Positions 17,417 through 50,956 of a stretch of DNA of 64,000 nt are shown here, one piece after another. The stretch lies in assembly GCA_963802255.1 (NCBI GenBank), contig CAWDHY010000002.1, forward strand, positions 4,867-68,866. Direction: 5' to 3'. A program made the position numbers and the translations under genes. This stretch comes from Candidatus Magasanikiibacteriota bacterium. GTDB lineage: Bacteria > Patescibacteriota > Patescibacteriia > Magasanikbacterales > GWA2-37-8. The notes beneath the pieces were generated by a model. It did no database searches. It was given only the letters and a program-made list of their open reading frames with translations, and had not been told where the DNA came from. Every line of letters starts with the position of its first letter. Within the stretch, counting starts at the first letter, position 1.

Positions 17417-17425
17417 ATTATTGTG

Positions 17426-17496
17426 CAGGGGGTGTAAGAATCGAACTCACGCGAACGGTTTTGGAGACCGTCGTACTACCACTATACGAACCCCCC
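17426..17496 (-). tRNA. tRNA-Trp (anticodon CCA)
   Basis: Hand-folded cloverleaf: acceptor GGGGGGT/ACCCCCT, anticodon loop CTCCAAA, T-arm GTGAG-TTCGATT-CTTAC. Confidence 0.75.
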
Positions 17497-17536
17497 GTGT
17501 TTAAAAGGCAGGACAAGAGTCCTGCCCTTAATATTA

Positions 17537-17701
17537 TTACTTCGTTTCCTTGTGCGCTACATGCTTTTTACAATGACGGCAATATTTCTTTATCTCTAAG
17601 CGGTTCTTCAGGAGTTTTTTATTCTTGCGGCTGAAGTAATTTACACGTTTGCACTCGGAACACTCCATTTTTATCATGTTTTCTCTTTCTTTTGAAGGCA
17701 T
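17537..17701 (-). CDS. rpmG: 50S ribosomal protein L33
   Basis: 54-aa [57 protein letters not shown] with the CxxC...CxxC zinc ribbon and the KETK C-terminus typical of L33. Below the 60-aa cutoff of the ORF track. Confidence 0.85.
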
Positions 17702-17726
17702 ATATTCAATTAATTAATTTACTATG

Positions 17727-17808
17727 TGGATGGGGAAGGATTCGAACCTTCGAAGGCGGAGCCAACAGATTTACAGTCTGTCCCCTTTGACCGCTCGGGA
17801 ACCCATCC
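17727..17808 (-). tRNA. tRNA-Tyr (anticodon GTA), long variable arm
   Basis: Acceptor GGATGGG/CCCATCC; anticodon arm ACAGA-CTGTAAA-TCTGT; T-arm GAAGG-TTCGAAT-CCTTC. Confidence 0.75.
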
Positions 17809-17823
17809 AACTTTGATACTGCG

Positions 17824-17896
17824 AGCCACCTGTCGGGCTCGGACCGACGACCTACGGTTTACAAAACCGTTGCTCTACCAGCTGAGCTAAGGTGGC
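17824..17896 (-). tRNA. tRNA-Thr (anticodon TGT)
   Basis: GCCACCT...AGGTGGC acceptor; anticodon arm ACGGT-TTTGTAA-ACCGT. Confidence 0.75.
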
Positions 17897-17922
17897 GAAT
17901 ATGGGCTTACTTTGTAAACCAG

Positions 17923-17995
17923 AGCCGTTGCGCGGATTTGAACCGCGGACCTACTCCTTACCATGGAGTTGCTCTACCAACTGAGCTACAACGGC
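17923..17995 (-). tRNA. tRNA-Thr (anticodon GGT)
   Basis: GCCGTTG/CAACGGC acceptor; anticodon arm ACTCC-ATGGTAA-GGAGT; T-loop TTCAAAT. Confidence 0.75.
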
Positions 17996-42599: not shown

Positions 42600-43503
42600 G
42601 CTCATCCAAAGTATTTACCCGCACTAATTTAGCGCGTAGTTTTTTTATACCGAAAATTTCATTGATCCGGTCTCCATGAAAATACCACGCGAGATGTTTT
42701 CTGAAGGACGTCATTCCCCTCTCACCGTAATGTTTAACATGAAGCTCAGCATGACGAATTACGGTGTCAATTATTTGGCTCATTTCTGCGTGATTATTAT
42801 TTGTATTCAATATCCATGGATTGCCAAGCGCCCCTCTGCCTATCATCACACCATCAGCACCGGTTATTTGCAGACAATTAAGAATATCTTCTTTAGTTCG
42901 AATATCACCGTTTGCCAATAGAGGTATTGAAAGCGTTTTTTTAACTTCTGCGATTCTCCGCCAATTGGCCTGTCCTGAATATCCTTGAATTTTTGTTCTG
43001 CCATGAACAGCAATCAAATCAATACCGGCATTTTCTAATCGTTTAGAAAAATCAAAAATTTCATCATCCCGGCTCCAGCCAAGACGCGTCTTTGCGGAAA
43101 GTGGCACACCGATATTTTCTTTTTTTATAGCCTCGACAATTTTTATCGCTAAATCCGGATGACGCATCAAAGACGCTCCGGCTTTTGTTTTATGTGCAAC
43201 TTTTGGTACCGGACATCCCATGTTAATATCAATACCATCTGGTTTAAAACTATCGACAATTAATCGCGCGGCTTTAGCCATTGTCAAAGGATCATCGCCA
43301 AATATCTGAATAATAACAGGATGCTCTTTCCCCATGATTTCGCACATGCGTAATGTTTTTTCATTACATCGCACTATCGCCGCAGAGCTCACCATTTCAC
43401 GGTAAATTACAAAATCATTACCGCTGATTTCACGGCATAATAAACCAAAAGGCCGATCGGTATAGTCGGCCATTGGAGCAAGGGCAATAATAGATTTAGG
43501 CAT
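42574..43503 (-). CDS. dusB: tRNA-dihydrouridine synthase
   Basis: ALAPMADYTDRPFGLLCRE, NMGCPVPKV FMN/TIM-barrel motifs. Start set at MPKSII to remove the poly-Arg N-terminal read-through. Confidence 0.85.
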   Translation of the reverse strand: MPKSIIALAPMADYTDRPFGLLCREISGNDFVIYREMVSSAAIVRCNEKTLRMCEIMGKEHPVIIQIFGDDPLTMAKAARLIVDSFKPDGIDINMGCPVPKVAHKTKAGASLMRHPDLAIKIVEAIKKENIGVPLSAKTRLGWSRDDEIFDFSKRLENAGIDLIAVHGRTKIQGYSGQANWRRIAEVKKTLSIPLLANGDIRTKEDILNCLQITGADGVMIGRGALGNPWILNTNNNHAEMSQIIDTVIRHAELHVKHYGERGMTSFRKHLAWYFHGDRINEIFGIKKLRAKLVRVNTLDELKTILSSL

Positions 43504-44875
43504 AAGGTAAATCTTCCGGCGCCGGCGCCTTCGGCTTTTCTTCTTTATTTTGATCAACCGCCTTTGATTTTAAAGGCATGGTAAAATGCTCTACCGGTAA
43601 ATTTATTGGTGGTTCGCCACGTTTAATATTTGCTTTCTGGATCAACGGAGTTTTAACCAGCGGTAATGGAAAATGCCAGATAGTAGCCAGTTCTTCAATG
43701 TTAAGAATATACGGGTCATTGGTAAATTTTAGCGCACGATTTTTATAAGCTGATACGATGTTTTGACCGCTAATTATCTTCGCCTTAAAACCATTGCGGT
43801 TGTTTATATAAAATTGATTCATGGCACCGATTAAACCCTGGACGCATTTATGCGGTTTGAATAATTCATTTTTCGCGGCATATAAGACGCGTACTCTGGA
43901 TTTAAACCCAAGTTTTGATATTTTATCTTCAATAGATTCAATTACCGCTCTTGCTCCCGGCGTTAAGTCGGATACTTTTCCCACAGTTTCTTCCTTCTTT
44001 TTTTTCTCTTCTTCGGCGCTAAAATCATATTTCCATGCCTGGATAGCTGTTTTTAACACCCATTCCGGCGCACTCCCAACCATACTAACTAAGCCGTTTT
44101 TCTTCGGCTCTTTTTTATTGGCAACTATTTTCTTAACCAAATCAATACCATCTTTTTTCCAGCTATTATCAACCGGTAAGACAACAATTTGCATCCATAA
44201 ATGTTCACCCGGCCCAATGCGGGAAAAATTTTCCAATATGGCGGCCATAGGATCGGTAAATACGACATCTTTGGAAATAGTATACTCGAATTCAGAATAA
44301 ACCCGGATTGGATATACGTCACTTTCCGCTAAACTAAACTCCGCGCCTTGCGCATCATATTCGGAATTGGGAAATGTCTCCGGTATCATTGAAACATAAT
44401 CTTCAACTTCAGTAATTTCCGCTTCCGAATACTGGGCATAAATTGCCGCTTCAACTAAATCTCGAAAAGATACTTCGGTGCGCACAACAAATTGTATATA
44501 CCCTTCGACACTGATAATTTCGAAACTAAACCATTTCGGCAGTTTCCCCTCAAAGTACCTTTCATAAACATTATAATTTACTTGTGCGCCACTCAAATGT
44601 ACAAAAATTTGTTCAACCGCTTTTGGCGATTGGACAAACTCTGCCGGAATATCCACCGCAAGCACGGTCCATTGCCAAGTTTTTAAGTACTCCTTCTGTT
44701 TAAACAACATCCATTCGTCAAGCGCTTTTTTAAATAAAAAAATTGCGATTAGCCACCATACTAAAATCGCAAAAATTGCTTTTGCCATTTCAAAAGGAGG
44801 CAATGACAAAAATGTCTGCCAAAAAGACAAATTAATACTGAAGCCAAACGGTGTTTCAAAAAGCCACGGCTCCAT
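43496..44875 (-). CDS. Stand-alone paralog of the N-terminal domain of the 36008..38548 coupling-protein-like gene (no ATPase domain)
   Basis: Two N-terminal TMs, then a body colinear with aa 1-420 of the 846-aa protein, e.g. IWHFPLPLVKTPLIQKANIKRGEPPINLP versus FWHLPLPSTETPHIDWLGARKAPPPLNMP, and FEIISVEGYIQFVV versus FEIVVSNGKISFYAA. Confidence 0.6.
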   Translation of the reverse strand: MEPWLFETPFGFSINLSFWQTFLSLPPFEMAKAIFAILVWWLIAIFLFKKALDEWMLFKQKEYLKTWQWTVLAVDIPAEFVQSPKAVEQIFVHLSGAQVNYNVYERYFEGKLPKWFSFEIISVEGYIQFVVRTEVSFRDLVEAAIYAQYSEAEITEVEDYVSMIPETFPNSEYDAQGAEFSLAESDVYPIRVYSEFEYTISKDVVFTDPMAAILENFSRIGPGEHLWMQIVVLPVDNSWKKDGIDLVKKIVANKKEPKKNGLVSMVGSAPEWVLKTAIQAWKYDFSAEEEKKKKEETVGKVSDLTPGARAVIESIEDKISKLGFKSRVRVLYAAKNELFKPHKCVQGLIGAMNQFYINNRNGFKAKIISGQNIVSAYKNRALKFTNDPYILNIEELATIWHFPLPLVKTPLIQKANIKRGEPPINLPVEHFTMPLKSKAVDQNKEEKPKAPAPEDLPYA

Positions 44876-45123: not shown

Positions 45124-46038
45124 TTAAGCTTTCTTTCTCTGCCAGCGTTCGACATAAACCAATAACGGAGAAGCGATAAAAATGGATGAATATGCTCCGG
45201 AAGTAATACCTACAAGTAAAGCCAGGGTAAAATTGTGAATAGTGACCCCACCAAAGAAAAATAAGGCTAATAGAGGAATAAGAGTGGTTAACGTCGTATT
45301 TATAGAACGCATTATCGTCTGATTCAAACCGACATTTACCATATCCTCAAACGATTCGGATGTTCGGCGTAACAATCTTTCACGGATTCTGTCATAAACA
45401 ACGATACAGTCATTTACCGAGTAGCCCAATATCGTTAAAACAGCAACAATAAAGGCGACATCGATTTCTGTGCCATAATAATGACCGAGAAGTGAAAATA
45501 AACCGATTACGATCAAAATATCATGTGCCATGGCAATCACACATAAAGCCCCGTATTTCCAGCTTGCCACAGGACGCGATACGCCCCGGAAAGCATAAGC
45601 AATGTACGCAATAATACCAATACACACTAAAATGAAGGCCCAAACTGAACGCTGACGCAATTGCTGGCTGACTGATGGCCCGATCATTTCAAAACGTGAC
45701 TCTAATATTGTATTTTCTTCGCTCTCAAATTCACTCTTTATCACACTAAATGTTTTTTGATGGGATTCTTCTGTCATAGTGGCGGTACGAATAATAACAC
45801 CACTATCCCCTGTTTTCTGGATAATAACATTTTTTATGTCTGATTTTTCCAGCACTGAGACAATCTGATTATTTTCAGGCCGGACCTTGGAAAACTCAAG
45901 TTCCATCAATGAACCGCCGGTAAAATCAATACCGAATTTTAAACCCCATACGGCTATGACGGCAATACTTAATGCCGCTAAAGCAGCGCTGAAAAAAAGC
46001 CAAATTTTTGAATACTTAATAAACGGTATATATTTCAT
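45124..46038 (-). CDS. secF: Protein translocase subunit SecF
   Basis: 304 aa; six TM helices with a periplasmic domain; immediately downstream of secD. Confidence 0.85.
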   Translation of the reverse strand: MKYIPFIKYSKIWLFFSAALAALSIAVIAVWGLKFGIDFTGGSLMELEFSKVRPENNQIVSVLEKSDIKNVIIQKTGDSGVIIRTATMTEESHQKTFSVIKSEFESEENTILESRFEMIGPSVSQQLRQRSVWAFILVCIGIIAYIAYAFRGVSRPVASWKYGALCVIAMAHDILIVIGLFSLLGHYYGTEIDVAFIVAVLTILGYSVNDCIVVYDRIRERLLRRTSESFEDMVNVGLNQTIMRSINTTLTTLIPLLALFFFGGVTIHNFTLALLVGITSGAYSSIFIASPLLVYVERWQRKKA

Positions 46039-46047
46039 ATGAAAATA

Positions 46048-48111
46048 TTACAATTTTTTTACTTCTTCCGACTTAACACCGCCCAAAAATAACCAGTTGG
46101 CTTCATCGTGCTTAAAGAATCCAAAAATCCAGCGCATTATATTTCGTGTAATAATTATTGCCGTAAACATTGATACAACAACGCCGATAAACAGAGTTAC
46201 GGCAAAACCCTGAACAAATCCGGTACCGATCCAAATGAGAAATACGCAGGATAAAAGCGTAGTAATGTTTGAATCGCGAATTGATGTCCATGCGCGTAAA
46301 AAAGCTTCCTCGGTCGCTGACCGTAAACTTTTTCCCGCCCGCAATTCCTCTTTAAGACGCTCAAATACCAATACATTTGCGTCAACAGCCATGCCGATAG
46401 ATAATATGAAACCGGCAATACCTGAAAGAGTCAATGTCGCATTAATCGTCTTGAAAACGGCCAAAGTTAACGCACTGTAGATGGTTAAAGTAATAACTGA
46501 TAATAAACCGGGGAGACGATAATAGAGAATCATAAAAAGCATAACCAACAACAATCCGACCACACCAGCTTTATAACTTGATTTCATTGAATCGGCTCCT
46601 AAAGTTGCATCAACTTTTTGCTGTCCAATCAACTCAATCGGCACCGGCAATGCACCGGAATTTAAACGCTGGGCAAGCAATTTAGCTTCATCCCACTTGA
46701 AACCTCCGGAAATAACCGCACTTCCGTCAAGAATCGGCTCGTTTACGCGAGGAATACTGATTGCTTCACCGTCTAAAAATATAGCGACAAGCTTATCAAC
46801 ATTTCTCGTTGTGATATCGGAAAATAATTTTGCCCCTTCATCATTAAACTGAAGGTTAACCTGAACCTCGCCGTTGCGGGTATCTTGTGTCACTTCGGCC
46901 TTTTTCAGCTGCTTGCCGGTTAGGCCGGTAAATTTCCATTGATCATTTGGAGGTAAAATATCTGTAACACTTTTTGTTTTAACAAAAATTCTCGCCATTT
47001 CATATTCCTTGGGTGTCTCTTCTCCTCTTTTAAGTATCAGATGATAGCCGAATTTTGTTTCAACCGGTCCGATGATTTGATTTACCGGAGCATCATAAAC
47101 CGCCTGTTCAAACTCCGGCACAACGACACCCTTTCCAAAAGTGCCCAAGTCTCCTCCACTCTCACTTACGCCCGGTTCAGTAGAATTCTGCTGTGCCATT
47201 TCTGAAAAGTTATCAACAGTAACATCTTGTTTTAACGCTTCTATCTTTGCCTTGGCGTCTTCTTTGCTGAGTGTACTGCCGCAAAGTTCCGCTCCTTTAT
47301 AACAAATTAGTATATGCGCGGCGGTTACCTGTTTTTCACCATCACGGACGCTTAATCTTTTAACTACATTCAAACCATCCGGGGTTATGACAACTTCTTT
47401 GGAGACATCTCCATCATTATGTTTAGCCGCCCAATCATAAATTTCAGGATAAATACTGTTATTTATAAACCCAAGATTTCCACCATCCCGCTTGTTGCTT
47501 TCATCTTCACTATACTTAATGGCAGTGGCGGAAAAATCCGCTTTATTGTTAATCTCTTTTTGAACCTCTTTAATTTTTTTATCGGCTTTAGCGTTAAAAT
47601 CATTCATTTCTTTTGTTTCTTCAGCCGTTAATTCTCGCGGAGGTTCGTTGTTTTCTTCTTTAAATTCCAGTACCGGCGTTTCACCGATCATTTTAATCGC
47701 ATCTGTAACATTGGCTACGCCCGGAAGTTCTATGATTAATCTGTATTCCTCTCCTACTCTGGTCGTTTGCACCAATGGTTCGGCTACCCCAAGGCCACCT
47801 CGAACACGGCGTTCGATTACATCGCGCACACCTTCAACTGCCGCCGCTCTTTCTGTGGGCGGTATACTGTCAATTTTTGCGACATACTGCAAATGGGCTC
47901 CGCCTTGAAGGTCTAATCCTAAATTAAAGCCGCTGGCGGGTAAATTTGGTATCCCAAGGCTGACTTTTGAATTAACCCAGCCGATCGCTTTATTAAAATG
48001 TCCAGGCAAAATTATTATCAGACAAACAATAAAAAGTGCCATAATACCGGCCATCCTCCATTTTATCTGTGAGCGTGTCGCGGTTTTAACAACGTTCTTA
48101 GTTTTAGCCAT
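46048..48111 (-). CDS. secD: Protein translocase subunit SecD with a parvulin-type PPIase domain inserted in the periplasmic P1 head
   Basis: SecD TM1, conserved P1 base (LVAIFLDGEAISIPRV) and C-terminal six-TM core. Between them (aa ~250-365, nt ~47020-47345) lies AAHILICYKG...GGDLGTFGKGVVVPEFEQAVY...FGYHLILKRGE, a PpiC/parvulin rotamase signature. Confidence 0.85.
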   Translation of the reverse strand: MAKTKNVVKTATRSQIKWRMAGIMALFIVCLIIILPGHFNKAIGWVNSKVSLGIPNLPASGFNLGLDLQGGAHLQYVAKIDSIPPTERAAAVEGVRDVIERRVRGGLGVAEPLVQTTRVGEEYRLIIELPGVANVTDAIKMIGETPVLEFKEENNEPPRELTAEETKEMNDFNAKADKKIKEVQKEINNKADFSATAIKYSEDESNKRDGGNLGFINNSIYPEIYDWAAKHNDGDVSKEVVITPDGLNVVKRLSVRDGEKQVTAAHILICYKGAELCGSTLSKEDAKAKIEALKQDVTVDNFSEMAQQNSTEPGVSESGGDLGTFGKGVVVPEFEQAVYDAPVNQIIGPVETKFGYHLILKRGEETPKEYEMARIFVKTKSVTDILPPNDQWKFTGLTGKQLKKAEVTQDTRNGEVQVNLQFNDEGAKLFSDITTRNVDKLVAIFLDGEAISIPRVNEPILDGSAVISGGFKWDEAKLLAQRLNSGALPVPIELIGQQKVDATLGADSMKSSYKAGVVGLLLVMLFMILYYRLPGLLSVITLTIYSALTLAVFKTINATLTLSGIAGFILSIGMAVDANVLVFERLKEELRAGKSLRSATEEAFLRAWTSIRDSNITTLLSCVFLIWIGTGFVQGFAVTLFIGVVVSMFTAIIITRNIMRWIFGFFKHDEANWLFLGGVKSEEVKKL

Positions 48112-48190: not shown

Positions 48191-50956
48191 CTACTTTCCG
48201 TGGCAATTCTTAAATTTAACCGGCCGTCCGTCAGGATGTTTCGCGCCACAAGGACAAGGATCGTTTCTTCCAACTTCATTACCCTCTTTATCTCGCGGCT
48301 TTCCGCTTGAAACCACATCACCCGCCTCTTTGGCCGCTCCTTGTAATATCAAGTTACCTTTCTGCATAATACTCGGGGCGAACTTGATGCCGATACCCAT
48401 TTTATAAATTGAGTACACAACTTCTTTCTGAATAAGAGAGAGAAGTTCGTTAAACATGTGATAGGTCTCCTTTTTATATTCCACAAGCGGATCACGCTGT
48501 CCGTAGCCACGCAGTCCAATACCGGTCCGTAAATAATCAATTGCTACGAGATGATCTATCCAGAGGTTATCAATTGATCTTAATAGCATCTGCTTTTCAA
48601 TCTCTAAAAGCAAAATCGGATCACTCGCCTGTTTAACCAGCATTTCATCATATCTATTTTTTGCAAGCACTGTCAGATATTCAATAATTTTTGTGCGAGT
48701 TTCCACAGCGGCTAATTTTTCCTTACCCTCTCCGCCCAACTGCGATATTTCCTTTTTTTCCGTATCGGAAAGAGGAAACACGGTTTGCATGGTCTCTGTA
48801 ATTTCCTTTAAATTCCAATTGTCCATTTCTTCAGCATTGGTATGAAAAGATACCACTGCTTCAATTTCTTCTTCCACCATTTCCAAAATCATTTGTCTCA
48901 GTGTCTGCTCGCCTTCGACCAATGAATTTGTTTTCTCTTTTTCATAATGTTCCAAAATTTTGCGTCGCTTGCCGTAAACCACTTCACGATGCTTATTTAA
49001 CACATCATCATATTCAATCAAGTGTTTACGCATGTCAAAGTGAAATCCTTCAACCTTACGTTGAGCCGATTCAATAATTTTAGTGATTGATTTTTGTTCA
49101 ATCGGCATATCGTCAGGAACTCTCAATGTCTGCATTACGGCGCGGATTCTATCGCCGGCAAAAATACGCATTAAGTCGTCTTCCGTGGAAAGATAAAATT
49201 GAGATTCTCCCGAATCTCCCTGTCGGGCGGCGCGCCCTCTCAGCTGATTGTCAATCCGGCGTGATTCATGACGCTCAGAACCGATCACAAAAAGACCGCC
49301 TGCTTCACGTGCTTTTGCACCAAGCTCTTTGTCCGGCGGATTTCCACCCATAATAATGTCGACACCGCGGCCGGCCATGTTTGTTGCAAGTGTCACAGCG
49401 CCAGGACGGCCGGCTTGAGCGATGATTTCACCTTCACGCTCATGATTCTTCGCATTCAAAATTTCATGTTGAACGCCTTCACGCTCCAGATATATTGACA
49501 ATTGCTCGTTTTTTTCCACTGAAATGGTACCAATCAACACAGGCTGGCCTTTTGCCTGCAACTCTTTGCATTTATTGGCAATAGCCAAATTTTTTATCTC
49601 CTCAGTCCGATAGATCCTATCCGGATGGTCTTTTCTAAGATTTTTTTTGTTTGTGGGAATAACTACCACTTCCAATTTGTAAATTTTCCCGAATTCTTCG
49701 GCTTCAGTCACAGCCGTACCGGTCATACCGGATAATTTTTCATACATCCGGAAATAATTCTGAAAAGTTACGGTAGCCATGGTTCTGCTCTCACGCTGAA
49801 TTTTGACCCGCTCTTTGGCCTCAATCGCCTGATGTAAGCCCTCGCTATATCGGCGTCCGGCCATTTTACGACCGGTAAATTCGTCCACTATCACTACTTC
49901 GCCTTCTTCCACCACATAATCGCGGTCACGCTTAAAAAGCGCCATGGCACGCAGAGCCTGTTCTACATGATGGACAATACTGATATCACCTTCGGCGTAA
50001 ATATTGTTCACACCAAGCCATTTTTCCATTTTTTGGATACCTGCCTCCGTCAAGGTTGAGGAACGCATTTTTTCATCAATATTATAATCAACATTTTCTT
50101 CCAGCCGTTCAACTAGTTCAGCAAATTTGTAATACATATCTGCCGCTTCTTCAGCAGGAGCGGATATAATAAGCGGTGTGCGGGCTTCGTCAATTAATAT
50201 TGAGTCAACTTCATCGACAATGGCAAAACTCAATTTTCGTTGAACCATATCTTCAAGAGATTGCACCATGTTATCGCGCAAATAATCAAAACCGTATTCA
50301 TTGTTTGTGCCGTAAATAATGTCGCACTGATAGGCCTCGGCGCGAGAACATGGTTCCAAATAGTCGTATTCAATTTTGAACATGCCTTTTGCGTCACGCT
50401 CTTTATCGGTAATGCTTCCCTCATCAAGATTTTCGTCAGGAACCGCGGCGCGCACTTGTGAATTGTATTTATAGGACACTCCCATCTGCTGAATCACGCC
50501 GATTGAAAGACCGAGCGCATCATAAATTTGGCCCATCCAAACAGCATCTCGTTTTGCCAGGTAATCATTGACGGTCACCAAATGCACTCCTTTTCCGGCT
50601 AGCGCGTTTAAATACACAGGCAAAGTTGCTACCAATGTTTTTCCTTCACCGGTTCTCATTTCCGCAATCTGTCCTCTATGAAGAACGACGCCGCCAATAA
50701 GCTGTACGTCAAAATGGCGCATGCCGGTCAAACGCCTGGACATTTCCCTTACAACCGCGAAGGCCTCCGGTAAAATGTCATCGAGCGTTTCCCCTCTTGT
50801 AAGACGCTCTTTAAATTCAATCGTTTTATTTTTGAGATCTGCTACTGATAATTCCTGAATTTCCAGCTCTTTTGAGTTAATCTGTGCGATAATCGGTTCA
50901 ATGCTTTTTAGTACTTTAGCGTTCGGATCCCCAAAAATTTTAGTGAGAAATGACAT
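48191..50956 (-). CDS. secA: Preprotein translocase ATPase SecA
   Basis: 921 aa; DEAD-like motor motifs; C-terminal zinc-binding CPCGAKHPDGRPVKFKNCHGK. Confidence 0.95.
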   Translation of the reverse strand: MSFLTKIFGDPNAKVLKSIEPIIAQINSKELEIQELSVADLKNKTIEFKERLTRGETLDDILPEAFAVVREMSRRLTGMRHFDVQLIGGVVLHRGQIAEMRTGEGKTLVATLPVYLNALAGKGVHLVTVNDYLAKRDAVWMGQIYDALGLSIGVIQQMGVSYKYNSQVRAAVPDENLDEGSITDKERDAKGMFKIEYDYLEPCSRAEAYQCDIIYGTNNEYGFDYLRDNMVQSLEDMVQRKLSFAIVDEVDSILIDEARTPLIISAPAEEAADMYYKFAELVERLEENVDYNIDEKMRSSTLTEAGIQKMEKWLGVNNIYAEGDISIVHHVEQALRAMALFKRDRDYVVEEGEVVIVDEFTGRKMAGRRYSEGLHQAIEAKERVKIQRESRTMATVTFQNYFRMYEKLSGMTGTAVTEAEEFGKIYKLEVVVIPTNKKNLRKDHPDRIYRTEEIKNLAIANKCKELQAKGQPVLIGTISVEKNEQLSIYLEREGVQHEILNAKNHEREGEIIAQAGRPGAVTLATNMAGRGVDIIMGGNPPDKELGAKAREAGGLFVIGSERHESRRIDNQLRGRAARQGDSGESQFYLSTEDDLMRIFAGDRIRAVMQTLRVPDDMPIEQKSITKIIESAQRKVEGFHFDMRKHLIEYDDVLNKHREVVYGKRRKILEHYEKEKTNSLVEGEQTLRQMILEMVEEEIEAVVSFHTNAEEMDNWNLKEITETMQTVFPLSDTEKKEISQLGGEGKEKLAAVETRTKIIEYLTVLAKNRYDEMLVKQASDPILLLEIEKQMLLRSIDNLWIDHLVAIDYLRTGIGLRGYGQRDPLVEYKKETYHMFNELLSLIQKEVVYSIYKMGIGIKFAPSIMQKGNLILQGAAKEAGDVVSSGKPRDKEGNEVGRNDPCPCGAKHPDGRPVKFKNCHGK

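What the first reader, a model, noticed from the sequence alone, without database searches (positions are those of the whole stretch)
47020..47345. Parvulin-type peptidyl-prolyl isomerase domain inserted inside SecD
SecD (46048..48111) has normal TM1, P1-base and 6-TM core segments. The periplasmic head region contains a complete PpiC/parvulin signature (AAHILICYKG ... GGDLGTFGKGVVVPEFEQAVYDAPVNQIIGPVETKFGYHLILK), as seen in PrsA/SurA/PpiD chaperones. A foldase built into the translocon motor subunit would put prolyl isomerisation directly at the exit of the Sec channel. That is plausible for an organism with few periplasmic chaperones. It could instead be a degenerate, non-catalytic domain used as a substrate clamp.
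Basis: seen in the sequence. Interest (0 to 1): 0.6.

Follow-up and report, generated by a model that had tools for sequence, protein, structure and literature searches.

The report
SecD with built-in tandem parvulin foldase
In this candidate-phyla-radiation bacterium, the membrane motor protein SecD, which pulls exported proteins out of the Sec channel, carries two inserted prolyl-isomerase-type domains (one degenerate, one with an intact active site), so a folding helper that other bacteria recruit as a separate protein is here part of the export machine itself.

Summary
The 687-aa ORF at 46048..48111 (minus strand) lies between secA and secF. It is a bona fide SecD (TIGR01129: 374 bits, cutoff 244). 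A parvulin domain sits exactly at the reported coordinates (aa 256-364; Pfam Rotamase/Rotamase_3, E~1e-34).

- Parvulin-1 (aa ~161-258) is degenerate. The second catalytic His is Asn, and no N-terminal His strand is present.
- Parvulin-2 (aa 259-365) keeps the full tetrad H266/E312/T352/H357, equivalent to Pin1 H59/C113/T152/H157, plus the hydrophobic proline pocket.

Deleting aa 161-365 in silico leaves a P1 domain collinear with T. thermophilus SecDF. The module is therefore a clean insertion just after the base-to-head connector strand.

It is not an assembly artefact. More than 100 independent homologs carry it, as do 24 of the best 150 50%-identity representatives. Named sources are Magasanik-, Falkow-, Uhr- and Parcubacteria MAGs. 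The module is under strong purifying selection.

The most likely function is a cis-acting PrsA/SurA/PpiD-like holdase plus prolyl isomerase that rides on the PMF-driven P1 head. Enzymatic activity is untested. I found no paper describing this architecture, and databases call the protein just "SecD". Verdict: a new variant of a known kind, of moderate interest, and Rosetta-stone support for SecDF-head/parvulin coupling.

The parts
46048..48111 (-). secD ORF, 687 aa (SecD with an inserted tandem parvulin module)
   Evidence: ORF. TIGR01129 secD scores 374 bits against a cutoff of 244. Pfam architecture. N-terminal residues upstream of the database-annotated start (M24, P0001, 664 aa) are conserved in 109 homologs (consensus TRSQxxWR), which supports the longer start.
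47992..48054 (-). TM1 (aa ~20-40). The K/R-rich N-terminus is predicted to be cytoplasmic, which places everything up to TM2 outside the cell membrane.
   Evidence: Hydropathy scan. AF2 helices at 13-34 and 36-50.
47650..47940 (-). P1 base, N-terminal part (aa 58-154): Sec_GG motif plus SecD_1st, ending in the LEFKEE connector strand (aa 148-153)
   Evidence: Pfam Sec_GG 58-76 and SecD_1st 93-154. Aligns to T. thermophilus SecDF 33-116. L148 and F150 are invariant.
47338..47631 (-). Parvulin-1 (aa ~161-258): a degenerate, presumably non-catalytic parvulin-like domain. It retains the acid residue D203, but the second His is replaced by N248 and there is no N-terminal His strand.
   Evidence: hhalign of aa 161-259 against aa 281-368 gives probability 97%, E 8e-11. 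SurA P1-P2 aligns across query 174-359. A second Rotamase stretch is reported. AF2 pLDDT is 95-98. Position 248 is N, S, E, V, A or Y, and His in only 2 of 39 sequences.
47017..47337 (-). Parvulin-2 (aa 259-365): a complete parvulin PPIase domain. It has the tetrad H266/E312/T352/H357, the pocket residues L322, V330 (Met in most homologs) and F334, and a conserved C270-x6-C277 pair.
   Evidence: Pfam Rotamase_3 and Rotamase, E~1e-34. HMM alignment to Pin1 and Par10. Conservation data. Foldseek rmsd of 1.9-3.0 A to Pin1, PrsA and Ess1 PPIase domains.
46927..47016 (-). Return segment (aa 366-395): a long beta-strand at 368-378 (KEYEMARIFVK) plus a short helix, leading into the P1 head. The strand may also complete the sheet of parvulin-1; this is unresolved.
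   Evidence: AF2 secondary structure, with pLDDT ~97 in the insert-only model. Aligns to T. thermophilus ~128-147 once the insert is deleted. Y370 and R374 are nearly invariant.
46636..46926 (-). P1 head core (aa 396-492), the preprotein-binding mobile subdomain of SecD
   Evidence: Pfam SecDF_P1_head 396-490, E 2e-27. Aligns to T. thermophilus SecDF 148-262.
46117..46635 (-). TM2-TM6 (aa 493-665), including the invariant D577 in GMAVDANVL. This aligns with the Asp of GAAVDGNVL in TM4 of T. thermophilus SecDF, the proton-pathway Asp called esAspIV.
   Evidence: Pfam SecD_SecF_C. Alignment to 3AQP. D577 is invariant. The role of esAspIV is taken from PMC5974789.
45124..46038 (-). secF (304 aa), the partner subunit. 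It starts 9 nt after the secD stop codon.
   Evidence: ORF. Pfam SecD_SecF_C E 7.8e-58 and Sec_GG.
48191..50956 (-). secA (921 aa), immediately upstream on the same strand, with a 79-nt gap to secD
   Evidence: ORF and translation, with SecA motifs visible. A SecA gene with SecA Pfam domains also lies upstream of the divergent fusion P0157.

Best explanation
This is a genuine, lineage-wide variant of the translocon motor subunit SecD, found in Patescibacteria/CPR bacteria (Magasanikbacteria and relatives). A ~205-residue tandem parvulin module has been inserted into the extracytoplasmic P1 domain, directly after the beta-strand that connects the P1 base to the mobile P1 head.

Parvulin-1 has lost its catalytic histidines. 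It most likely acts as a scaffold or peptide-binding (holdase) surface, like SurA P1 or the PpiD parvulin. Parvulin-2 keeps the complete parvulin active site and most likely catalyses cis/trans isomerisation of Xaa-Pro bonds.

The module hangs on the head side of the hinge. It should therefore travel with the head as SecDF cycles between membrane-facing and intermediate forms, driven by proton flow through the intact TM core. The polypeptide captured by the head as it leaves SecYEG would be presented in cis to a chaperone/isomerase.

In effect, this hard-wires the SecDF-PrsA/SurA/PpiD hand-over that other bacteria achieve with separate proteins.

Shown: the architecture, the insertion point, the fold, residue conservation, purifying selection and the phyletic spread. 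Inferred: catalytic activity, movement with the head and action on emerging substrates.
For: Architecture and significance:
- Pfam and NCBIfam hits.
- The insert replaces T. thermophilus residues ~117-147.
- After in-silico deletion of aa 161-365, the P1 domain aligns collinearly to T. thermophilus SecDF 34-275 in one HMMER domain (E 1e-28).

Tandem nature:
- hhalign gives 97% probability that the two halves are paralogous.
- SurA P1-P2 aligns across both halves.

Fold:
- The insert-only AF2 model has pLDDT 93.1 and pTM 0.77.
- Foldseek superposes it at 1.9-3.0 A on Pin1, PrsA and Ess1, and SurA is the top two-domain hit.

Active site:
- H266, E312, T352 and H357 align with Pin1 H59, C113, T152 and H157. 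L322, M/V330 and F334 align with L122, M130 and F134.
- Among 109 close homologs these are 109/109 H, 103 E + 6 D, 105 T + 4 S, and 109/109 H.
- Among 39 divergent fusions (query included) they are 38, 37, 38 and 37 of 39.
- The equivalent His position in parvulin-1 is almost never His.

Selection: dN/dS is ~0.03-0.05 in parvulin-2, similar to the base and head.

Intact motor: D577 is invariant.

Not an artefact.

Independent recurrence of the pairing: a small family of TM-anchored proteins combines a P1-head domain with the same Cys-x6-Cys parvulin subtype.

Precedent for the function in trans:
- SurA P1/P2 parvulins are predicted to bind the SecDF P1 head (PMC9987972).
- PpiD contacts the SecD periplasmic domain (PMC9643414).
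- In Mycoplasma, the PrsA-like PPIC domain of Mdp444 contacts the SecDF head and base and the substrate density (10.1101/2025.04.25.650208; 10.1101/2024.09.05.611430).
Against: - No enzymatic or genetic data exist, and fold plus conserved residues do not prove activity.
- The residue at the Cys/Asp position is mostly Glu, which is unusual for characterised parvulins.
- This particular protein has Val at the Met130-equivalent pocket position.
- The full-length model has pTM 0.40. The orientation of the module relative to the head and to SecYEG is therefore unknown, and the active site could be occluded or face away from the channel exit.
- I could not inspect coordinates, so rigid coupling to the head is inferred only from the insertion point.
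- The chaperone inventory of the genome could not be surveyed, because only 64 kb were available. No second parvulin was found in the window.
Confidence: 0.6

Rival explanations
1. The whole module is a non-catalytic substrate clamp or holdase. Both parvulin domains only bind unfolded chains, like the PpiD parvulin domain or SurA P1. The conserved 'catalytic' residues of parvulin-2 serve fold stability or peptide binding rather than isomerisation.
For: Parvulin-1 has clearly lost the histidines. Inactive parvulin domains are common in translocon-associated chaperones: the functional importance of the PpiD parvulin domain is questioned in PMC9643414, and two of the three Mycoplasma Mdp proteins lack the catalytic residues. 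Glu in place of Cys/Asp, and Val at the M130 position in this protein, could reduce activity.
Against: Within the same protein, one paralogous domain lost the tetrad while the other kept all four positions plus the L/M/F pocket across divergent lineages. That is the pattern expected if catalysis is selected in parvulin-2. The E/D interchange at position 312 preserves the acid function.
Confidence: 0.25
2. The module is a docking or architectural element. It could tether SecDF to another envelope component (SecYEG/YidC, cell wall, S-layer or pilus machinery) or regulate the head's swing (autoinhibition or gating), without acting on substrates.
For: The insert-only model is a compact, apparently rigid two-domain unit (pTM 0.77), placed right at the hinge, where it could restrict or bias head rotation. 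A conserved DUF8128 membrane protein follows secF in two divergent contexts and could be a partner.
Against: This does not explain the specific retention of the catalytic tetrad and proline pocket. Every known extracytoplasmic bacterial parvulin module (PrsA, SurA, PpiD, Mdp444) is substrate-directed.
Confidence: 0.1
3. It is an artefact: a misassembly, frameshift or chimeric contig that joined a separate prsA-like gene to secD.
For: None found.
Against: The frame is continuous and there is no compositional break. The insert interrupts SecD internally, with SecD sequence on both sides collinear to T. thermophilus SecDF. The same architecture appears in 120 of the 120 best homologs from many independent samples and sources, in 24 GTDB species genomes and in divergent representatives. 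Purifying selection acts on the insert.
Confidence: 0.01

Closest known systems
Canonical SecD/SecDF (T. thermophilus SecDF, PDB 3AQP/5YHF; D. radiodurans 5XAN/5XAP)
   Same: It has TM1, the P1 base, the P1 head and TM2-6, with the essential TM4 Asp. A separate SecF lies downstream. The P1 domain is collinear once the insert is removed.
   Different: It carries ~205 extra residues (two parvulin domains) between the base-to-head connector strand and the head core. No solved SecD/SecDF chain that matched the query (3AQP/5YHF, 5XAM/5XAN/5XAP, 5MG3) shows such a domain in the alignments.
SurA (E. coli, PDB 1M5Y): tandem P1-P2 parvulin domains
   Same: It is the best two-domain match by both sequence and structure. 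Query 174-359 aligns to SurA 173-358. The first domain is inactive-like and the second is active-like, as in SurA. AlphaFold predicted that the SurA parvulins bind the SecDF P1 head (PMC9987972).
   Different: There is no SurA N- or C-terminal chaperone core. The relative orientation of the two domains differs (rmsd 11-12 A). NCBIfam SurA scores 63 bits against a cutoff of 394. The module is covalently part of SecD, and the host is a CPR bacterium, a group generally thought to lack an outer membrane and therefore OMP cargo (general knowledge, not tested here).
PrsA (Bacillus/Staphylococcus lipoprotein foldase)
   Same: It is an extracytoplasmic, membrane-tethered parvulin that acts on Sec substrates after translocation. 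PrsA is the best single-domain sequence match (PDB 6VJ6/6VJ4/6XD8, E 1e-12 to 1e-14; Foldseek rmsd 2.1-3.0 A).
   Different: There is no lipobox and no NC chaperone domain. NCBIfam PrsA models score ~79 bits against cutoffs of 343-361. The anchor is SecD itself. The acid residue is Glu, and a Cys-x6-Cys pair is present.
PpiD-YfgM bound to SecYEG/SecDF (E. coli, PDB 8ZHT)
   Same: It is a membrane-anchored parvulin-containing chaperone at the Sec exit that contacts the SecD periplasmic domain (PMC9643414). It appears as a weak structural hit.
   Different: PpiD is a separate protein with one inactive parvulin plus SurA-like domains. Here the parvulins are in SecD, and one retains the catalytic residues.
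Mycoplasma pneumoniae dome complex (Mdp444/436/489 with SecDF-SecYEG-SecA)
   Same: In a wall-less or monoderm, genome-reduced bacterium, a PrsA-like PPIC domain sits on the SecDF head and base and touches the emerging substrate. One catalytic PPIC domain is combined with degenerate ones.
   Different: That complex is non-covalent and built from very large lipoproteins forming a chamber. Here a compact tandem parvulin is fused in cis, with no dome proteins.
Free-standing TM-P1head-parvulin proteins (P0176, P0225, P0264, P0278-P0283, P0285)
   Same: They have the same parvulin subtype (HLLICYxGxxxC ... NSTEPG ... FGYHLIYK; up to ~56-61% identity to the SecD inserts), combined with a SecDF_P1_head domain.
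   Different: The domain order is reversed (head, then parvulin). There is a single parvulin, no SecD base or TM2-6, and no sec operon context. In L029/L030 the gene lies near a serine recombinase and a TPR-trypsin gene.

Membership tests
SecD (protein translocase subunit, RND superfamily) | Matches the curated SecD equivalog model above its cutoff | tested here: met
   TIGR01129 secD scores 374.4 bits against a cutoff of 244.4. TIGR00916 scores 227.9 against 148.6.
SecD (protein translocase subunit, RND superfamily) | TM1, large extracytoplasmic P1 (base plus head), then five further TMs, with the conserved TM4 Asp; secF adjacent | tested here: met
   Pfam SecD_1st, SecDF_P1_head and SecD_SecF_C. 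D577 aligns with the TM4 Asp of T. thermophilus and is invariant. secF lies 9 nt downstream.
SecD (protein translocase subunit, RND superfamily) | PMF-dependent stimulation of protein export | not testable with these tools
   Requires biochemistry or genetics.
Parvulin-type PPIase domain (PF00639 / PF13616) | Profile match above the gathering threshold | tested here: met
   Rotamase_3 scores 118.9 bits (cutoff 22.5) and Rotamase 117.7 bits (cutoff 21.7), with two stretches each.
Parvulin-type PPIase domain (PF00639 / PF13616) | beta-alpha3-beta-alpha-beta2 parvulin fold | tested here: met
   AF2 pLDDT is 93. Foldseek superposes it on Pin1, PrsA, Ess1 and SurA-P2 with TMt ~0.8 and rmsd 1.9-3.0 A.
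Parvulin-type PPIase domain (PF00639 / PF13616) | Catalytic tetrad His / Cys-or-Asp / Thr(Ser) / His and the Leu/Met/Phe proline pocket | tested here: met
   Parvulin-2 has H266, E312 (an acid; Glu or Asp across the family), T352 and H357, plus L322, M/V330 and F334. Parvulin-1 does not meet this: N248 replaces the His, and no first His is present.
Parvulin-type PPIase domain (PF00639 / PF13616) | Measured prolyl cis/trans isomerase activity | not testable with these tools
PrsA foldase family | Lipoprotein anchor plus an N/C chaperone domain flanking a single parvulin; match to the PrsA equivalog models | tested here: not met
   NF002846 and NF002827 score 78-79 bits against cutoffs of 343-361, and only the parvulin part aligns. 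No SurA_N-type domain appears in Pfam.
SurA | N-terminal chaperone domain, P1, P2 and a C-terminal strand; match to the SurA equivalog | tested here: not met
   NF008038 scores 63 bits against a cutoff of 394. Only the P1-P2 region aligns (query 174-359).
PpiD | N-terminal TM anchor, SurA-like domains and one inactive parvulin, in complex with YfgM | tested here: not met
   No SurA_N/PpiD-type domain hits appear in Pfam. There is only a weak structural hit to 8ZHT (TMt 0.13).

The most novel reading that the evidence does not exclude
The SecD-embedded parvulin-2 is an active prolyl isomerase that is swung by the proton-driven P1 head. SecDF in these CPR bacteria would then be a combined PMF-powered 'pull-and-fold' machine, the first case of a folding catalyst covalently built into a translocon motor. 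The fusion would also be Rosetta-stone evidence that the SecDF P1 head is the ancestral, general docking and hand-over site for parvulin chaperones (PrsA, SurA, PpiD, Mdp444) in all bacteria. The free-standing P1-head-parvulin proteins would be a second, independent use of the same functional pair.
Probability: 0.45. Interest if true: 0.7.

Novelty: new variant of a known kind. Interest (0 to 1): 0.55.

Why it matters
How polypeptides leaving SecYEG are handed from the SecDF head to extracytoplasmic chaperones is an open and currently active question. So far the evidence is indirect: AlphaFold models and low-resolution EM for SurA-SecDF, cross-links for PpiD-SecD, and in-cell tomography for the Mycoplasma dome.

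A conserved natural fusion places a tandem parvulin exactly at the P1 base/head hinge. This is independent evolutionary evidence that the head and parvulin chaperones work as one unit.

It also offers a compact two-gene (secD-secF) system in which coupling of PMF-driven pulling to prolyl isomerisation could be tested structurally and biochemically. For CPR biology, it illustrates how genome-reduced bacteria consolidate envelope proteostasis into core machinery.

For annotation, these proteins are currently named only 'SecD', which hides the foldase module.

Tried and rejected
1. Misassembly or frameshift hypothesis: rejected.
2. Filing the insert as PrsA, SurA or PpiD: rejected. Only the parvulin parts align, and the equivalog scores are far below their cutoffs.
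I replaced it with a local phmmer classification using the five regions of the query.
4. AFDB50 fold search, to find annotated proteins with the same tandem arrangement: the library was not available.
5. The listing of cluster members, for taxonomic names of the divergent fusion representatives: it returned almost no names. The phyletic range therefore rests on GTDB record titles and a few NCBI names.
6. The genome-contig scan used exact peptide patterns from a single sequence, so it under-samples distant lineages. Several hits titled 'uncultured Gammaproteobacteria' are evidently mislabelled MAGs.
7. Which strand supplies beta1 of parvulin-1 (SecD strand 148-153, or strand 368-378 after parvulin-2): hhalign did not cover it and no model coordinates are accessible. 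This is left unresolved. In the insert-only model the 368-378 strand has pLDDT ~97, whereas only 151-153 is strand at the N-terminal side, which mildly favours 368-378.
8. dN/dS: synonymous sites are near saturation against the closest relative (pS 0.6-0.84), so the ratios are only rough.
9. Tsukazaki et al. 2011 (PMC3697915) is not held. I used the 2018 review instead.
10. The idea that E. coli SecD carries an insertion at the same site: not supported. Its extra residues lie N-terminal to the GG motif (one search aligns query 12-250 to E. coli 212-460).
11. Five literature searches found no description of a SecD-parvulin fusion. Absence from this library is not proof of absence.
Full report

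Yes. A single 687-codon ORF runs from 48111 to 46048 on the minus strand. secA (48191..50956) lies 79 nt upstream and secF (45124..46038) lies 9 nt downstream, both on the same strand.

Pfam gives, in order:

| Domain | Residues | Score |
|---|---|---|
| Sec_GG | 58-76 | E 5e-05 |
| SecD_1st | 93-154 | E 9.6e-12 |
| Rotamase_3 | 249-359 | E 2.2e-34; 118.9 bits against a cutoff of 22.5 |
| Rotamase | 266-360 | E 4.6e-34 |
| SecDF_P1_head | 396-490 | E 2e-27 |
| SecD_SecF_C | 493-662 | E 7.3e-15 |

The curated SecD equivalog TIGR01129 is passed, at 374 bits against a cutoff of 244. GC content shows no step at the insert.

**2. What is actually there: a tandem, not a single domain**

Pfam reported two Rotamase stretches, and the precomputed annotation of the identical database protein also lists Rotamase twice. 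E. coli SurA aligns across query 174-359 to its residues 173-358, which covers both of its parvulin domains.

A profile-profile comparison of aa 140-262 against aa 255-385, built from 109 homologs, aligns aa 161-259 with aa 281-368. The probability is 97% and E is 8e-11. The insert therefore consists of two parts:
- Parvulin-1 (aa ~161-258). It retains the acid residue (D203, equivalent to E312). N248 stands where the second catalytic His should be, and there is no recognisable N-terminal 'HIL' strand.
- Parvulin-2 (aa 259-365). It is complete.

**3. Where it is inserted**

T. thermophilus SecDF residues 33-116 align with query 62-151, and residues 148-423 align with query 384-660. I then deleted aa 161-365 in silico. 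The remaining P1 domain aligned collinearly with T. thermophilus SecDF 34-275 as a single HMMER domain (E 1e-28), and the junction fell at T. thermophilus ~120-128.

The module is therefore a clean insertion immediately after the 'LEFK' strand that leads from the P1 base into the mobile P1 head. It is not a replacement of SecD parts. The N-terminus is K/R-rich and is followed by TM1, so the whole P1 domain, including the insert, is extracytoplasmic.

The TM core looks functional. D577 in GMAVDANVL aligns with the TM4 Asp of T. thermophilus (GAAVDGNVL) and is invariant in 109 homologs. That Asp is one of the essential proton-pathway residues (PMC5974789).

**4. Fold**

The full-length AF2 model has pLDDT 78.8 but pTM 0.40, so the inter-domain geometry is unreliable. 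Even so, the insert itself reaches pLDDT 85-92.

Modelling aa 138-395 alone gave pLDDT 93.1 and pTM 0.77. That suggests the two parvulins pack as a fairly rigid unit.

In the Foldseek search against the PDB, SurA came first, with 211-222 aligned columns covering both domains. The rmsd was 11-12 A, so the relative orientation differs. Single PPIase domains followed: Pin1, S. aureus and Bacillus PrsA, Ess1, SurA-P2 and Par14, at rmsd 1.9-3.0 A and target TM ~0.8.

**5. Is the active site intact?**

I aligned Pin1 and E. coli Par10 to an HMM of parvulin-2. The equivalences are as follows:

| Parvulin-2 | Pin1 |
|---|---|
| H266 | H59 |
| S310 | S111 |
| E312 | C113 (Par10 C40) |
| L322 | L122 |
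| V330 (Met in most homologs) | M130 |
| F334 | F134 |
| T352 | T152 |
| H357 | H157 |

Conservation among the 109 close homologs (60-78% identity):
- H266 in 109/109
- E312 as 103 E plus 6 D
- T352 as 105 T plus 4 S
- H357 in 109/109
- L322 in 108
- M330 in 101
- F334 in 109

Among 39 more divergent fusion proteins (the query, 50%-identity cluster representatives and GTDB loci), the tetrad is kept in 38, 37, 38 and 37 of 39. Position 248 of parvulin-1 is N, S, E, V, A or Y, and His only twice. So one paralogous domain has been allowed to lose catalysis while the other has not.

There is no Pin1-type basic phosphate loop. By that criterion this is a non-phospho-specific parvulin (inference from the alignment).

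C270 and C277 (C-x6-C, at the end of beta1 and in the following loop) are invariant in the close set. In the divergent set they are lost only together, in 4 of 39 sequences. This points to a disulfide, which fits an extracytoplasmic location. It is an inference, because I could not inspect coordinates.

**6. Selection**

Mean identity to the query, by region:

| Region | Close set | Divergent set |
|---|---|---|
| P1 base | 77% | 66% |
| P1 head | 74% | 64% |
| TM2-6 | 72% | 64% |
| Parvulin-2 | 57% | 50% |
| Parvulin-1 | 48% | 37% |

Against the closest GTDB relative (L001), dN/dS is about 0.05 for parvulin-2, 0.03 for the base and 0.05 for the head. Synonymous sites are near saturation, so these numbers are rough. 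Even so, the insert is clearly under purifying selection.

**7. Distribution and artefact test**

All 120 best database hits carry SecD plus Rotamase Pfam domains. They come from many independent samples and sources. Where named, they are 'protein translocase subunit SecD' from Candidatus Magasanikbacteria or the Patescibacteria group. Some are SecD-SecF fusions of ~990 aa that also contain the insert.

A pattern scan of GTDB species representatives found 24 loci with the insert, in MAGs labelled Magasanikiibacteriota, Falkowbacteria, Uhrbacteria and Parcubacteria. Insert identity ranges from 43% to 88%. NCBI places Magasanikiibacteriota in the Parcubacteria group of the Patescibacteria group.

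An exhaustive HMMER search with the insert alone, against 1.84 billion 50%-identity representatives, gave 20,529 hits at E≤1e-3. These are parvulins in general. Among the best 150, 24 are SecD proteins or fragments with the same order: base, parvulin-1, parvulin-2, head, TM. Most of the rest are free-standing proteins with two or three tandem parvulins.

A divergent fusion, P0157, sits in a similar gene neighbourhood, with secA upstream and secF and DUF8128 downstream. Misassembly is therefore excluded.

**8. Independent recurrence of the pairing**

Three of the 150 representatives, and about ten clusters in a follow-up search, are 270-297-aa proteins. Each has an N-terminal TM anchor, a SecDF_P1_head domain (E~1e-16) and one parvulin. 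That parvulin carries the same HLLICYxGxxxC / NSTEPG / FGYHLIYK signature as the SecD insert.

The C-x6-C motif occurs as follows:
- in 14 of 21 SecD-fusion representatives
- in 3 of 3 head-parvulin proteins
- in only 5 of the 126 other parvulin proteins, several of which look like fragments

So the P1 head and this parvulin subtype have been combined at least twice, in opposite orders. One such gene lies away from the sec genes, next to a serine recombinase, HTH regulators, zinc-ribbon proteins and a TPR-trypsin protein.

**9. How it most likely works**

The following is established knowledge from the literature:
- SecDF uses the PMF to drive large swings of the P1 head between membrane-facing and intermediate forms.
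- The periplasmic region binds unfolded preprotein (PMC5974789).

Parvulin chaperones meet SecDF in trans in several systems:
- AlphaFold consistently docks the SurA P1/P2 parvulins on the SecDF P1 head, and SurA binds the holotranslocon (PMC9987972).
- PpiD contacts the SecD periplasmic domain and cooperates with SecDF (PMC9643414).
- In M. pneumoniae, the catalytically competent PPIC domain of the PrsA-like Mdp444 contacts the SecDF head and base and the emerging substrate density. Head-Mdp444 contact is proposed to mediate hand-over (10.1101/2025.04.25.650208; 10.1101/2024.09.05.611430).

My inference is that in this lineage the partner has been fused in cis at the hinge. The head would capture the chain, the degenerate parvulin-1 would provide a scaffold or holdase surface, and parvulin-2 would isomerise prolyl bonds as the chain is pulled out.

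I put about 0.6 on this reading. I put about 0.25 on a purely non-catalytic clamp, and about 0.1 on a docking or regulatory role.

**10. Comparison with known families, and novelty**

The protein is a member of SecD and contains bona fide parvulin domains. It is not a member of PrsA, SurA or PpiD: the equivalog scores are far below their cutoffs, and the chaperone core domains are absent.

Five full-text searches found no description of a SecD-parvulin fusion. Public records name these proteins simply 'SecD', although automated Pfam hits to both domain types are on record.

I classify it as a new variant of a known kind. It is not mechanistically revolutionary. It is a neat natural fusion that bears directly on a current question, translocon-to-chaperone hand-over, and it is easy to test.

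**11. Limits**

- No coordinates could be inspected.
- The module's orientation relative to the head and to SecYEG is unknown.
- Activity is untested.
- The organism's remaining chaperone inventory is unknown. No other parvulin lies in the 64-kb window.
- The phyletic range outside the named Parcubacteria-group lineages was not determined.

Noticed in passing
L029:8001-8846 (GCA_964526325.1, CAZGKM010000001.1) and L030:603-1448; proteins P0176, P0225, P0264, P0278-P0283, P0285: This is a rare family (~10 clusters) of 270-297-aa proteins: an N-terminal TM anchor, a SecDF_P1_head domain and one parvulin of the same Cys-x6-Cys subtype as the SecD insert. It has no SecD base or TM core. The gene lies next to a serine recombinase, HTH_3 regulators, zinc-ribbon membrane proteins and a 694-aa TPR-trypsin protein, so it may sit on an island.
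   Followed up: partly
window 47281-47304 (aa 270-277 of SecD): The two cysteines C270 and C277 (HILICYKGAELC) are invariant in 109 homologs. In divergent fusions they are lost only together (Q..A three times, A..S once). This suggests a disulfide in the beta1-alpha1 loop of the parvulin. The motif is strongly enriched in SecD-associated parvulins compared with other parvulins.
   Followed up: partly
window 43496-44875 (-): A 459-aa DUF8128 (PF26449) membrane protein directly follows secF. The same family lies one gene after secF next to the divergent fusion P0157, where it is followed by a VirD4/TraG-like coupling protein carrying zf_Tbcl_2. In the window's own contig, a zf_Tbcl_2 protein lies three genes beyond DUF8128, after a Dus gene and a glycosyltransferase gene. 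This may be a conserved sec-linked gene of unknown function in CPR bacteria.
   Followed up: partly
window 48043-48111 (-): The database copy of this protein (P0001, 664 aa) starts at M24. However, the 23 upstream codons of the longer ORF are conserved across 109 homologs (consensus MAxK...TRSQxxWR). The annotated start is probably too short.
   Followed up: partly
L010 (MFQZ01000010.1); proteins P0034 (990 aa) and P0061 (996 aa): Some Magasanikbacteria encode a single fused SecDF polypeptide (~990-1030 aa) that also contains the tandem parvulin insert. The secD-secF fusion state therefore varies within the clade that carries the insert.
   Followed up: no
L002, L005, L008, L012, L016, L019, L020, L023: GTDB or TPA MAG records titled 'uncultured Gammaproteobacteria bacterium' carry the CPR-type SecD-parvulin gene at 44-60% insert identity to the window. 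The organism labels of these records look wrong.
   Followed up: no
SecD aa 288-663: The NCBIfam SecDF subfamily model NF009583 (PRK13024.1-3) aligns nearly one-to-one with query 288-663 (model positions 60-432). That range begins inside parvulin-2, and the score is 408 bits against a cutoff of 721. It is unclear whether this is an envelope artefact or whether the model's seed includes parvulin-like sequence.
   Followed up: no
window 17425-17995 (-): A cluster of four tRNA genes (Trp-CCA, Tyr-GTA, Thr-TGT, Thr-GGT) lies within 570 nt. This is ordinary and is noted only for completeness.
   Followed up: no
protein P0229 (504 aa, NCBI name 'Candidatus Woesearchaeota archaeon'): This protein is attributed to an archaeal MAG. 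It carries a parvulin with the same HILICYEGALNC motif (49-50% identity to the SecD-associated parvulins) together with SurA_N-type and thioredoxin-like Pfam hits. It could reflect transfer between DPANN archaea and CPR bacteria, or a binning error.
   Followed up: no
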